This document shows positions 9,818 through 15,987 of a DNA stretch of 64,000 nt, piece after piece (the first letter of the stretch is position 1; each line of letters starts with the position of its first letter). The stretch comes from Octopus sinensis (taxonomy: Eukaryota). A program made the position numbers and the translations under genes. The notes below the pieces were generated by a model. That model saw only the letters and a program-made list of their open reading frames with translations. It made no database searches and was not told the origin of the DNA. The stretch spans positions 57,350,001 to 57,414,000 of the forward strand of contig NC_043007.1 in the NCBI RefSeq assembly GCF_006345805.1, given 5' to 3'.

Positions 9818-10798
9818 CATACATACATACATAAATGCGTACGTACAGACATACATATATACATACACACACACACACACACACACATATACATACATGC
9901 ACACACTCATAAACCATCACCACCATTACCAATCACTTTTACCATTCCCATCACTAACCTTTATTATTATCACTAAGACCCTTCACCCCCATCGCTATAA
10001 CCACAACAGCCAGCATCACTCGCCACAATCCCTCTACCTACACCACTACCATCACATCTTGCACCGTCACCATAACCCCTACCACCACTGCTTCAACCAA
10101 CTCTACCACCATCATCATGGTCACCATCATCATGGCCACCATCACCCCAGCCACCACCACCACTACCATCGCCACCACCCCTTCTACCCTCACCACGGCC
10201 ATCAGTATCACAAACCGACATCGCTTTCAACATCATCAGCATCATCATAGTTAACAGGTCTACCATTCTGCCGACAATTGTCGAACAATGGAAGGCAGAC
10301 ACATGACTACAGCAGGTAAGACAAAAATACGCCATGTTGATGTTACCGTGAACACTGGGCTCCCATCTATATTTAATGTAGCCGTAGGTGCAGAGTAATG
10401 CACTCGGTTTAACATTCTACTTCACCGACACGCCTAGATAAATTATTCATTATATCGGGACGGTCTCTGCTCTCATGGCGTTAAAGTATTTCTGTTTTGG
10501 TTTGGGCCAATAATGCGTGAAGGGTCGTGGGTTCGTCCCCAGGTTTCTTTGAGCTTTATTTATGCATTTAACTAATTTTTTTCTTTTTAGTGCATAATGA
10601 AGTAGAATCCTTCTCCAGCTGTGAAGAAAAGGCAAACCATTTCGATTTCAAGTTTGCGTTGCTTTTCACATAGAAAAATTGTACGCTTTGCATCTTAACA
10701 TATTTCGTCGTGGGAAACAAATGGTTCAGAAATGAAAGAATATGTAAAAAGTGGGGAGAGGCAAAGATGACTCCGCACGTATGTGTGTGTCTGTATGT

Positions 10799-11532: not shown

Positions 11533-11626
11533 TACCGTGAACACTGGGCTCCCATCTATATTTAATGTAGCCGTAGGTGCAGAGTAATGCACTCGGTTTA
11601 ACTCGGTTTAGCCCAGTGTTAGATAC
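11533..11626 (+). repeat. 70-bp identical copy of 10344-10413 with extra templated pieces
   Basis: 11533-11602 = 10344-10413, followed by a TCGGTTTA repeat and GCCCAGTGTT (reverse complement of AACACTGGGC). Flanked by TTAGATAC at 11528-11535 and 11619-11626. Confidence 0.9.
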
Positions 11627-11997: not shown

Positions 11998-12241
11998 ACA
12001 TATATATATATAATAGAAATATTAAAGTTACTAAGTCTCTCTAAAAAAGATTACGGCAGCGTTACTGGAAATTAATTGTTAACGCCATATTAATATGGCA
12101 GTCTTATAGATATAAGACTAAAAGCTGTCGCTGATTAGCTCCATGAGGCCATCGCCTTAAGATAGCTATTTGACACACAAACTGTGTCCATTATAACCTT
12201 CGAACAAGGGAGGTCAGCCGCTTCACACCGCCAGTCAGACA

Positions 12242-12284
12242 GTTACAGACGCGTTTCAGGGTATTTGCCCTTTGTCAATGTAGC
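12242..12284 (-). ncRNA. Mirror copy of the U3:A8 hammerhead
   Basis: Reverse complement of the 12390-12432 motif with one stem I mismatch (TGTAAC). Confidence 0.65.
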
Positions 12285-12389
12285 GTAATATTTCTATTAT
12301 TGAAAACAAGTGGATGTATTCCACCGAAACTAGGTAATTAAAACCTTCGAACAGAGACGATCAGTGGCGACACCTGCTGGGTCGACTAC

Positions 12390-12432
12390 GCTACATTGAC
12401 AAAGGGCAAATACCCTGAAACGCGTCTGTAGC
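12390..12432 (+). ncRNA. Minimal type I hammerhead ribozyme, U3:A8 core variant
   Basis: GCTACA-TTGACAA-AGGG caaata CCCT-GAAA-CGCG-TC-TGTAGC: stem I 6 bp, stem II 4 bp, palindromic stem III ACGCGU, GUC cleavage triplet. Confidence 0.75.
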
Positions 12433-12625
12433 TGTCTGAGTGGCAGTGTGAAGCGGCTGATCTCCCTTGTTCGAAGGTTATAATGGACACAGTTTGTGTG
12501 TCAAATAGCTATCTTAAGGCGATGGCCTCATGGAGCTAATCAGCGACAGCTTTTAGTCTTATATCTATAAGACTGCCATATTAATATGGCGTTAACAATT
12601 AATTTATTATTAATATGGCGTTAAC

Positions 12626-12673
<48 letters not shown>

Positions 12674-12999
12674 CGAAGGCTTCTTTCAGTTTCCACCTAC
12701 CAGATCCACTCACAAGGTTTTGGTCGGCCCATGGCTATAGCAGAAGACACTTCCTTAAGGTGTCACACAGTGGGACTGAATGCGGAACCGTGTAGTTGGG
12801 AAGCAAACCTCTTACCACCCGCTTGCACCTATTCTTCATGACTTCGTAAAAATATTAAAAACAGTTATGACCGAAACTAAGTGGGATGATTTGACTTTCA
12901 GCCTTTTAGTATGTGTGATATCGATCAAACCATTTTTCAATTATACACCAGTAAACCTATACATTGACTAATAATGATTAGTTCACGCATGGCTGTATA

Positions 13000-13345
13000 C
13001 AGGTGCGGTTGTTGCTGTGTAGATAAGAAGCTTGCTTCCCAACCACATGGTTCTATGTTCAGTCCGATTGCTTGGCACTTTGGGCAGGCATCTCATACTT
13101 AGCCCTTGGCTGACCAAAGCCCTGTGACTGGATTTGGTAGAAGGAATGCTAAAGAGACCCGTCGTAAATATGTATGTGTGTGTGTGTTGTATTTGTTCCC
13201 CACCGTGGCTTGACAACCGGTGTTGTTTTTGTTTTGTTTTTGTTTTTGCGTTTCGCAAATTAGCGGTTTGGCAAAAGTAACCAATAGAATAAGTATCACA
13301 CTTTGAAAAAGATAAAGTACTAGGGTCAATTTGTTCCATTAAACC
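13000..13345 (+). mobile_element. SINE A (3'-truncated), followed by a partial body repeat to 13427
   Basis: Homology to 2740-3153. Confidence 0.75.
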
Positions 13346-13428: not shown

Positions 13429-13568
13429 GTGGCTTCTGCAAGTGTTAACAAACTCACAAAAGTTTTGTTGTACGAATTTTACGAAAAAAAATTGTAAAAT
13501 TTTGAAAAATTTATTGGCCGGTTTGCTCGAGTTGCAAAAACAGCAACAACAGCAGCAGCTACAACTGC

Positions 13569-13634
<66 letters not shown>

Positions 13635-15987
13635 TACAACTGCAAGAGCAACAACAGAAGCAACAACAACAACAAATAATATTACAGCAACAAATGCTAC
13701 AATTACTAAAGTCATTAGGGTAGTCAGAAAAAGTGTTCTCGACAATGTCACGAACTCCATAACAGAGTTCAAATACGAACCTGATGAAGGAGTTACCTTC
13801 GAAGCAAACTACAGAAAACATGAGCAAATCTTCGAGAAAGCAGGTAAAGATTGGAGACGACGAAATGAAAACACACTTGATCTTGAGAAAATTGGCAGCA
13901 ACAAAACATGAAAGATACAGTAATTATGTACTTCCAAGAAAACCTTCGGACATAATGACACAATAGATATATTGTGTAAAATTTTCAGTGAAAAAAGCTC
14001 ATCGTTCAACACACTTTGGAAGTGTCAGAACATAGAGAAAAACGACGAGGACATCACATAAACTGGAAGAGTAAAGAGGAAATGTGAGGAGTTTAAACTG
14101 AAGAAATTAACACCAGATATGTTCAAATGCCTGACTTTTATACAGGGACGAAAAGGATGCAGAAGTTAGCACTAGAATTCTTGCAAAGCTGGAACTAAAC
14201 CATGATGTAACCCAACAAGAGTCAGAAGAATGCGAAAAGATAGTCAAATTAAGACACGACGCAGAAGAAATCGAACGTAAAGATTGTTTCCAAGTAAAGC
14301 AAGTGCGAAACAGTCAGAATAGAGTTAAAATGCTTTCTAAAAAAACACGACAAAAATCAAGAAATAAGCCCATGTTTTGCATGTGGAGGTATACACCTGA
14401 GGAAAAAATTGCCCATTTAAAAAAGCGCACTGTTAAACTAAAATGGCAAAACGTCAGAACAAAGGATAAAGAATAAATAGTATGTCATCGGAAGAAATTT
14501 GAAATATAACGATGAGAAAATTCATGAAGGTGAAAATCAGAAATACAAGTGTTAAAATGAAATTGGACACTGGTAGTGATATTACTATTATAAACGAAAA
14601 TACTTGGAAGCATGTCGGTAAGCCAAAATTAATAAAATCGAAAAAGGTAGCATATGTTGTTACAGGAAAAAGATTATATTTTTTCAGTGAATTCATATGT
14701 AGTGCAGCATTTCGAGGTCAAACAAAAAAAGCAAAGATGTATATGTTAAAAAGTTCACTTAATTTATTCGGCACAGAGTGGATGGAACTATTCAAAGAAT
14801 GGAATACGCCCACGAGTGTTTTGTGTGGAAATATAGTCGGTTCAGTCGAAGTTTCAAATGCGGCTGAGGTACTAAAGCAAAAAATTGCCGTAAAACAGAG
14901 TGGAACACCGATATGTAAGCCAAAACGAAATGAAAAATTGCCCACGATAAAAAGTAAACATTGTTCAAAAGTAGATGTTCCGAAGTCGAGATTGCACATC
15001 GATTTCGCTGGTCCTTTAAATGGTTCTAACTACTTAGTAGTAGTCGATGTTTTTTTGAAATGACCAGAAATTTGTAAGTGCAAAAAACCAACCTCCTCAA
15101 CTGTGATAATTTTTTTACGGCGCCATAGCAGCCCAAATCTAATGGACAGGCAGAACGCTTTGTCGATACCTTCAAAAGAGCCATTAGAAAATCGAATAAG
15201 GAAGTTACGGATGAGATAGCTCTACAACAATTTTAAAGAGTGTACCGTGTGACACCAAATTTGATAAAACCAGCATGTAGCTCACCAGCGGAGCTGATGA
15301 TTGTAAAGAAAGTAAAATCAGTTTTTGATAAAATGCTACCTGGCAAGAAAAGAAAAAGTGCCAGGGAAGATATAGCAAGATTTTTTAAAGTTGGTGGAAT
15401 GGTGTACATGAAGGCATACAAGAATGGAAAGCAGTGTTGGGAAGATGGCATAATTACCAAATGCATAGGTAAAATGATGTATTGGGTAAAAAGTAGAAAA
15501 AGCATACAAAAGAAACACAGGAACCAACTGAAAAAGAGATTCGTGGAAAGCGAACCAAAGAAGTTGGAGGAACTGATGGAATGGTTGTACGATACGTTCC
15601 AAGTACCAACGCCACTGCAGGTGATTGAACCCAGGCGTACAAGTGAGAGGAGAAGAAAACATACAGAGTTCCTGAAAATAGATGCCAAGCGAAAAAAATA
15701 TTAAACTGTACGAAAAGAAAAATTAAGAAAGGGAGGTTGGGTGAATAAATAAGAATTATTGCTCAACAAAATGACACTTCCTAAGAAAAACTTCAAATGG
15801 GAGATGTAGGGAATTAGTAACCACGTGACGAATGGAATAACATAGTCACTATAAGTAAAGAGAAGTACGTGAAGTACCAGAGGACGTAGTAGGTGGTCAG
15901 AGAGAGTCGTGTCTTTACTGGTTTTACGAAGTGTACTGTATACCGAAGGGGTGTTATATTAATCCAACATGAAAAAAGATTATAACA
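13429..15987 (+). mobile_element. Degenerate Ty3/Gypsy LTR retrotransposon: gag-protease-integrase, RT/RNaseH deleted, single 3' LTR
   Basis: PBS-like TGGC at 13430. PolyQ gag then FKYEPDEGVTFE...RYSNYVLPRKP; protease LDTGSDITII; integrase RLHIDFAGPLNG..., SNGQAERFVDTFKRA, YRVTPN. PPT AAGAAAGGGAGG near 15724-15736; LTR-like TG...TATAACA about 15738-15987. Confidence 0.85.

What the first reader, a model, noticed from the sequence alone, without database searches (positions are those of the whole stretch)
12069..12605. Young palindromic element whose two hammerheads carry the compensatory U3:A8 core variant
Seen: 219-bp near-identical arms, each starting with an outward-facing motif UUGACAA / stem II / GAAA / ACGCGU-C in place of CUGANGA. 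The plus-strand copy has stem I extended about 50 nt by the spacer (AACCTTCGAACA 12342-12353 pairs with TGTTCGAAGGTT 12468-12479). The arms contain further hairpins (GCCATATTAATATGGC, AGTCTTATA-GA-TATAAGACT). Established: positions 3 and 8 form a Watson-Crick pair in the active hammerhead, so C3U+G8A is a compensatory double change rather than decay. Minimal HHRs with palindromic stem III occur in Penelope pLTRs and are thought to act as dimers. Inference: a non-coding, self-cleaving, Penelope-mobilised family that standard CUGANGA motif searches would miss.
Basis: partly seen in the sequence, partly recalled or inferred. Interest (0 to 1): 0.78.

Follow-up and report, generated by a model that had tools for sequence, protein, structure and literature searches.

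The report
Ribozyme retroelement with snRNA-type promoter
The palindrome is a head-to-head double insertion of a 364-base tandem repeat that carries a variant hammerhead ribozyme motif, is likely copied around this animal genome by a Penelope retrotransposon, likely uses a promoter like that of U1/U2 splicing RNAs, and is itself repeatedly invaded at one spot by a second retrotransposon.

Summary
The sequence observation holds: 219-nt arms (4 mismatches) and two type I hammerhead motifs with U3:A8. The palindrome is not the element. It is two truncated, outward-facing pieces of a 364-nt tandem monomer (at least 616 core copies in the genome) set in (TA)n; the inversion point differs between copies. 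U3:A8 is fixed (126 of 129) and stems I, II and the stem III palindrome covary. This is a non-LTR retrozyme with a Penelope insertion signature, and U3:A8 plus opposite-strand pairs are already published for Penelope hammerheads. Three things I did not find in print: (1) in 45 of 46 classifiable two-armed insertions one arm ends at each of two fixed sites 61 nt apart; (2) the monomer and three sister families carry the U1/U2 upstream box of this genome at the matching distance from one site; (3) an APE-RT LINE and its ORF1-only derivative insert at that site in all four families and at U2 gene starts. Cleavage, transcription, circles and the mobilising enzyme are inferred, not shown. Only the plus-strand hammerhead of this copy has the promoter box and a stable stem I.

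The parts
12010..12287 (-). Left arm: 5'-truncated piece of the monomer (M100 to M364, then M1-M13), 3' end pointing left; includes the 61-nt tail
   Evidence: L001 1499-1776
12010..12068 (-). Tail between the two fixed 3' end sites (about M317-M13), with a small hairpin shared by the sister families
12243..12283 (-). Left hammerhead motif (core 12278-12272, predicted cut after 12248); one stem I mismatch, no upstream promoter box, stem I predicted open
12286..12605 (+). Right arm: near-whole monomer (M363 to M318), 3' end pointing right, no tail
   Evidence: L001 1775-2094
12302..12319 (+). Box resembling the U1/U2 upstream element (PSE-like) of this genome; best sense-strand site of the monomer
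12361..12378 (+). Site duplicated when the LINE or its ORF1-only cassette inserts in other copies (empty here); predicted transcription start about 12363-12366
   Evidence: start site inferred
12335..12484 (+). Long interrupted extension of stem I; the part 5' of about 12363 would exist only in read-through, tandem or circular RNA
   Evidence: inference from the predicted start
12391..12431 (+). Type I hammerhead motif: U3:A8 core 12396-12402, stem II 12403-12416, GAAA 12417-12420, palindromic stem III 12420-12425, predicted cut 12426/12427
12608..12629 (+). Local re-copy of 12579-12600 at the right end, likely re-priming or slippage at the target
   Evidence: (D14); cause inferred
11999..12011 (.). 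(TA)n target remnant, left, next to a (CA)n tract
12630..12670 (.). (TA)n target remnant, right

Best explanation
The locus is a two-armed, head-to-head insertion of a 364-nt tandem hammerhead repeat (a non-LTR retrozyme) into (TA)n, likely made by a Penelope-like RT/GIY-YIG protein that primed one cDNA from each strand of the cut target. Shown: tandem monomer, fixed U3:A8 core, stem covariation, two fixed 3' end sites used once each per insertion, (TA)n flanks, a U1/U2-like box, and LINE insertions at one site. Inferred steps: (1) the PSE-like box starts an RNA about 30 nt upstream of the hammerhead core, which reads through tandem units; (2) neighbouring hammerheads pair through the palindromic stem III and cut, giving 364-nt monomers that could be ligated to circles; (3) the Penelope protein binds the tail hairpin of a multimer or circle, starts one cDNA at about M316 and the other at about M13, and the two 5'-truncated cDNAs are joined by 1-5 nt microhomology, which yields a palindrome wherever they overlap; (4) a LINE targets the start site of this promoter type and borrows the promoter.
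For: Tandem units at 365-bp period and variable inversion points. 616 exact core matches, 0 in the reversed control. U3:A8 126 of 129; pair 106:142 AT48/GC43/GT34; stem III centre GC72/AT61; circular fold z -7.1. On 61 rows: 7 pairs with double changes against 3.3 shuffled (5 of 500), covariation 0.124 against 0.091 (0 of 500). End rule 45 of 46 classifiable of 57 inverted pairs, p 6.5e-13; 15 of 15 in the loci picked only by the core pattern; overlap 1-5 nt in 38 of 57; flanks mostly (TA)n. 123 of 150 pieces span the cut site and 56 exceed one monomer. A young Penelope-like element here (RVT_1 + GIY-YIG, 781 aa) has a 3' hammerhead with the same TTGATAA core, two 3' end sites in (TA)n and one head-to-head copy with one end of each kind (L157). 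Literature: two internal RT start sites and cutting/extension of both strands at AT-rich DNA (PMC11167929); inverted 5'-truncated copy and a tail at one end (PMC8557442). Promoter: box at -56 to -61 in 25 of 25 U1 and 24 of 30 U2 loci; the matrix built from them puts its best sense site at -55, -58, -56, -58 from the LINE cut in families A-D, which are only 55-58% alike. LINE at U2 start sites (L219/L286, L256/L287).
Against: No cleavage, RNA end, circle or transcript was observed. The Penelope element found shares no BLAST-detectable sequence with the monomer, so the driver is not identified. The box alone is weak: 36 of 500 shuffles of the monomer reach its score somewhere, and with a U1-only matrix family D's best site lies elsewhere; the four families are homologous, so not fully independent. 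Arms of one insertion differ no more than units within an arm (2.7% against 3.2%), and units within an arm carry variants shared with other copies, so neither a circular template nor two separate templates is shown. In PMC11167929 hammerhead cleavage needed the protein and was not needed for insertion; PMC4209133 found low activity for Penelope hammerheads. Stem II closes with A-U in most copies rather than the usual G-C, and A-C in 9 of 132. Covariation counts are sequences, not events.
Confidence: 0.78

Rival explanations
1. The monomer is only the pseudo-LTR of an autonomous Penelope family that I did not find; the copies are truncated by-products of its transposition, not a self-sustaining retrozyme.
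For: The insertion signature is that of Penelope elements; bioRxiv 10.64898/2026.07.22.740005 derives retrozymes from pLTRs (abstract and passages).
Against: Units join directly monomer to monomer, up to 3.5 units; no RT or GIY-YIG frame continues from the monomer in the 80 loci screened for long frames, and of 48 Penelope loci only one (L127/L152) has a copy nearby, as a separate insertion.
Confidence: 0.1
2. The hammerhead fold is kept as a protein-binding or dimerisation structure and cuts slowly or only with protein help; mobilisation uses uncut multimers.
For: 123 of 150 pieces span the cut site (loci were picked for having the core, so this is biased); PMC11167929 found unprocessed RNA to be the main substrate.
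Against: Core positions are nearly invariant while position 7 and loops vary; across sister families position 3:8 takes U:A, U.G and C:G but C:A only once in 131 contexts.
Confidence: 0.2
3. The palindrome with two outward-facing ribozymes is itself the mobile unit.
For: 17 of 25 pattern-picked insertions are inverted.
Against: Arm lengths and inversion points differ in every independent copy; many arms lack the hammerhead; the left hammerhead here has no promoter box and an open stem I.
Confidence: 0.03
4. The repeat is moved by the APE-RT LINE that inserts into it, not by a Penelope protein.
For: The LINE is young and physically tied to these repeats.
Against: LINE copies end at a fixed AATAAA-bearing 3' end with 9-17 nt duplications; the repeat's ends have neither, and composites carrying the cassette still end at the two repeat sites with an inverted arm (L084).
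Confidence: 0.04
5. Assembly fold-back artefact.
For: No contig of four public runs was seen across the junction (uninformative for a repeat).
Against: Arms differ at 4 sites, the left arm has 59 nt of element sequence absent from the right end, and the two ends obey the family rule.
Confidence: 0.02

Closest known systems
Metazoan non-LTR retrozymes (Cervera and de la Pena 2020, PMC7229834; Li et al. 2026, bioRxiv 10.64898/2026.07.22.740005)
   Same: About 300-400 nt tandem non-coding monomer, one type I hammerhead per unit, low GC, strongly self-paired predicted circle, co-occurrence with Penelope elements.
   Different: U3:A8 core; mostly dispersed short two-armed insertions in (TA)n; end-site rule, promoter box and a resident LINE are not in the passages I read. 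Circles not shown here.
Penelope-like element pLTR hammerheads (PMC4209133; PMC8557442; PMC11167929)
   Same: U3-A8 variant, opposite-strand pairs, palindromic stem III, inverted 5'-truncated copy, tail at one end, AT-rich targets, two RT start sites.
   Different: No ORF; 4-bp unbulged stem II and long stem I; tail 61 nt rather than 30-40; PMC11167929 saw no strand difference in start site in vitro, whereas here each insertion uses each site once.
Newt satellite 2
   Same: Tandem hammerhead repeat that cuts as a dimer (PMC6155905 passages) and is driven by an snRNA-type promoter (Coats et al. 1994, seen only as a citation and one sentence in PMC2220036).
   Different: Different phylum and sequence; promoter here is inferred from sequence; the variant core and LINE targeting are not known to me for satellite 2.
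Target-specific Tx1-clade LINEs: Tx1, Keno, Tx1-Mar (PMC4494074, PMC4640811 passages)
   Same: APE + RT LINE with a narrow target inside multicopy RNA genes or other transposons; tandem re-insertion separated by the duplication; non-autonomous followers.
   Different: Keno and Utopia insert before U2 nucleotide 39; this LINE joins about 5 nt upstream of the U2 start and at the matching place in four hammerhead families of unlike sequence. Clade not tested by a tree.

Membership tests
Type I hammerhead ribozyme | Conserved core with a 3:8 pair, GAAA and UH, three stems | tested here: met
   stem III only as an inter-unit palindrome (monomer form costs about 5.7 kcal/mol)
Type I hammerhead ribozyme | Compensatory changes in stems | tested here: met
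   (61 rows; counts are sequences, not events)
Type I hammerhead ribozyme | Self-cleavage after position 17 | not testable with these tools
   no assay; only contigs available
Non-LTR retrozyme | Short tandem non-coding monomer with one type I hammerhead per unit | tested here: met
   364-365 bp period, up to 3.5 units
Non-LTR retrozyme | Expressed as linear and circular monomer RNA | not testable with these tools
   no run on record as RNA; contigs only
Non-LTR retrozyme | Derived from the pLTR of a co-resident Penelope element | tested here: inconclusive
   no BLAST similarity to 48 Penelope loci sampled from 147 matches of 5029 candidates; same core and end pattern
Penelope-mobilised insertion | Inverted 5'-truncated copy, tail at one end, AT-rich target, no LINE-type tail | tested here: met
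   definitions from PMC8557442 and PMC11167929
Autonomous Penelope-like element | RT plus GIY-YIG ORF | tested here: not met
   no long frame at the locus
snRNA-type (PSE) promoter | PSE about 55-60 nt upstream of the start | tested here: met
   best matrix site at -55 to -58 from the LINE cut in 4 of 4 families; score alone 36 of 500 shuffles
snRNA-type (PSE) promoter | SNAPc binding and capped 5' ends at the predicted start | not testable with these tools
   none
Tx1-clade target-specific LINE (the invader) | APE endonuclease + RT + C-terminal zinc finger, ORF1 with CCHC, target duplications | tested here: met
Tx1-clade target-specific LINE (the invader) | RT groups with Tx1/Keno in a tree | not tested
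   no named reference proteins among 36 hits except one algal RT; the label 'Tx1-like' is recalled

The most novel reading that the evidence does not exclude
These hammerhead circles are snRNA-promoter parasites in a three-tier system: they carry their own PSE, are copied by a Penelope dimer that starts its two cDNAs at two different sites on the RNA, one per target strand, and are homed into by a LINE that finds its target by the bound snRNA promoter complex rather than by DNA sequence, so that it lands at the start site of U2 genes and of four unlike retrozyme families, takes over the promoter and rides the ribozyme and the Penelope machinery.
Probability: 0.4. Interest if true: 0.82.

Novelty: new variant of a known kind. 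Interest (0 to 1): 0.62.

Why it matters
How animal retrozymes are transcribed and what moves them is argued mostly from co-occurrence. This family gives testable coordinates: a promoter box, a start site marked independently by a second transposon, and two RT start sites. The rule that each two-armed insertion uses each start site once is a direct constraint on the unsolved later steps of Penelope integration. A LINE that lands at snRNA-type start sites of unlike sequence would be a new targeting class and a natural reporter of such promoters. The U3:A8 core and the palindrome as such are known.

Tried and rejected
Twin priming on one linear RNA (inner start of one arm abutting the outer end of the other): fits this copy, L002 and L009 but not most others; rejected as the rule. 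Test for two templates or a circular template by within-arm against between-arm differences: no difference. A second hammerhead-like motif at 12301-12336 (TTGAAAA ... GAAA): its GAAA is broken in 25 of 93 copies and it overlaps the promoter box; rejected. The ORF cassette as the element's own Penelope ORF: no similarity to the Penelope upstream ORF; it proved to be a LINE ORF1 derivative. P0001: no hit in Pfam alone, PDB, ESM Atlas or the word-indexed protein search; 506 unnamed relatives by profile; the fold model was unusable (pLDDT 36.5), so no fold search. Expression: no RNA holder listed; contigs of guessed-RNA runs cover the repeat but show no ends; no evidence either way. A pattern search for carried-over 5' heads of the cassette returned 3 already known loci. 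Earlier findings of the scan: none. Coats 1994 and Lunse 2017 are not held, so I could not read them. U1/U2 heads on LINEs can also arise by template switching (PMC4494074), so the heads in L286 and L288 are only weak support for start sites. No supplements were read.

Full report
Observation. The inverted repeat is as described: 12069-12287 against 12387-12605, 219 nt, four mismatches. My motif scan of the whole window found two hammerhead-like motifs and no others, one per arm, with TTGACAA in place of CTGANGA, a 4-bp stem II, GAAA and ACGCGT-C. The plus-strand motif sits at the tip of a long stem (z -7.5). Rfam has no hammerhead hit here.

The unit is a tandem monomer. A DNA search of the own genome (2.72 Gb) gave 176 matches among 40 scored of 2919 candidates. 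Mapping the 30 fetched loci showed that the right arm plus 'spacer' continues, in other copies, into the reverse complement of 12012-12068 and then into the next unit: a 364-365 bp monomer, up to 3.5 units in a row. I number it M1 = 12288. A core pattern with positions 3, 7 and 8 free gave 616 exact matches and 0 for the reversed control; reading the 100 listed, 99 have U3 and all have A8. Over the fetched copies U3:A8 is 126 of 129, with position 7 free. Double changes keep stem I (A-U 48, G-C 43, G-U 34), stem II (A-U 86, G-U 19, G-C 12, A-C 9) and the stem III palindrome (72 against 61). On an alignment of 61 rows (57 of 75 distinct full-length matches plus 4 of a more distant subfamily) the structure beat its shuffles on covariation (0 of 500) and on pairs with double changes (7, 5 of 500), not on pair types (340 of 500); related rows inflate such counts. 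Sister families show U.G and C:G at 3:8, and C:A once in 131 contexts (the sample is dominated by family A).

The palindrome is an insertion by-product. After removing 11 duplicate loci, 57 head-to-head pairs remained; their inner junctions fall at many positions, with 1-5 nt overlap in 38. Outer ends fall at two sites, about M13 and about M316. Of 46 pairs with both ends at one of these, 45 have one of each (expected half, p 6.5e-13); 11 pairs had an end elsewhere. The BLAST-picked loci are biased towards this form, but the loci picked only by the core pattern gave 15 of 15 (16 pairs), and 17 of 25 such insertions were inverted. Flanks are mostly (TA)n. The window copy obeys the rule: left arm M100 to M13, right arm M363 to M318. 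PMC8557442 (passages) describes the inverted truncated copy, a tail at one end and (TA)n targets for Penelope elements; PMC11167929 (first two of four parts) shows two internal RT start sites and extension of both strands. The genome has young Penelope-like elements (147 GIY-YIG matches of 150 scored; 781-aa RT + GIY-YIG) whose 3' hammerhead has the same TTGATAA core and whose copies end at two sites in (TA)n, once head-to-head with one of each. They share no BLAST-detectable sequence with the monomer, so the driver is likely of this kind but not identified. 123 of 150 pieces span the cut site and 56 are longer than a monomer, so templates were uncut multimers or circles; a test to tell these apart failed.

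A second transposon marks one site. Two core hits 4 kb apart enclosed a 1.72-kb cassette with a 444-aa CCHC protein, flanked by a repeat of monomer M74-M90. Of 42 cassette 3' ends, 30 were fetched: by eye 21 run into a hammerhead repeat with the core about 38-41 nt on (12 by a strict script, control 18 of 2400), 4 into the host duplication and a further element, 5 into unrelated DNA. Hosts are four families (A = this one, B, C, D), 55-58% alike for A-C, each supplying its own duplication. The cassette tree (46 of 49 rows) needs 9 host changes where 4 is the minimum, so insertions recur. L191 holds the autonomous form: a 5.5-kb LINE with a distant ORF1 and an APE + RT + zinc-finger ORF2. Of its 30 best copies (150 scored), by eye 19 run into a hammerhead repeat (13 by the strict script), 6 into the duplication and another element, 1 into a U2 gene, 1 elsewhere, 3 lack the 3' end. 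I saw only the ORF1-only form in family A.

That site looks like an snRNA-type start. The LINE sits at the U2 start in L286, with the U2 upstream region and first 11 nt duplicated in front; the cassette does so in L256/L287. U1 (25 of 25 fetched, of 42) and U2 (24 of 30 fetched, of 45) loci share a box at -56 to -61. A matrix from 10 non-redundant boxes has its best sense site in the monomer at 12302-12319; ten bases of it are identical to the U2 box in L286. The score alone is modest (36 of 500 shuffles), but the best site lies -55, -58, -56 and -58 from the LINE cut in A, B, C, D (4 of 4 with both gene sets or U2 alone, 3 of 4 with U1 alone). I infer a start near 12363-12366. Then only the right arm of this copy has a promoter; its hammerhead stems are predicted to form, while stem I of the left one is not, and with no second unit downstream this copy could not release a full monomer by itself.

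What is known. U3-A8 cores and opposite-strand pairs: PMC4209133 (first two of four parts). Retrozymes, dimers, circles and Penelope as the likely mover: PMC7229834 (passages and discussion) and bioRxiv 10.64898/2026.07.22.740005 (first part and passages; 'promoter' does not occur in it). An snRNA-type promoter in newt satellite 2: one sentence and the citation in PMC2220036. Tx1-clade targeting of U2 and of transposons: PMC4494074 and PMC4640811 (passages and one section), at other sites. Nine paper searches showed no report of the once-each end rule or of a LINE at retrozyme or snRNA start sites; the library lacks most subscription papers and Repbase, and I read no supplements, so prior description is possible.

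Verdict. All activity is inferred. Interest 0.62.

Noticed in passing
L191:2512-7990 (G000:C4:39443011-39448489); intact ORF2 in L290:2711-6100: Two-ORF APE-RT LINE inserted at the predicted start site of hammerhead repeats and of U2 genes; re-inserts in tandem (L292, L293).
   Followed up: partly
L061:1869-3586; L159; L195-L199: ORF1-only derivative with long open frames, forming tandem arrays at about 1.7-kb period; some arrays (L159, L195-L198) showed no hammerhead or standard 3' end by my patterns, so their target is unexplained.
   Followed up: partly
L084/L160 (G000:C11:57472657-57475096): A copy of the window's own subfamily carrying the ORF1 cassette, with an inverted arm and both family end sites, about 110 kb from the window copy: the composite seems to have been moved as one piece.
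   Followed up: partly
L143:674-4374: Penelope-like element with a 479-aa upstream frame overlapping the 781-aa RT/GIY-YIG frame at a T-rich stretch (possible frameshift), repeated TGACGTC motifs in the 3' region and a U3:A8 hammerhead.
   Followed up: partly
L087, L091, L092, L102, L104, L106, L108, L109; L093, L098, L203: Sister hammerhead families with other core variants: C at position 4 (CCGAYGA) and a U3.G8 wobble, a possible step between C:G and U:A.
   Followed up: no
L288:1560-1577: A related LINE (81%) starts with the first 17 nt of U1 snRNA.
   Followed up: no
window 10344-10413 and 11533-11602: Two identical 70-nt direct copies 1189 bp apart, next to microsatellites.
   Followed up: no
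window 12678-12790 and 13024-13081: Fragments of a very high-copy repeat directly right of the element (deep contig cover), 76% inverted match to each other.
   Followed up: no
window 13525-13713: CAA/CAG repeat tract that could encode poly-glutamine; not checked as an exon.
   Followed up: no
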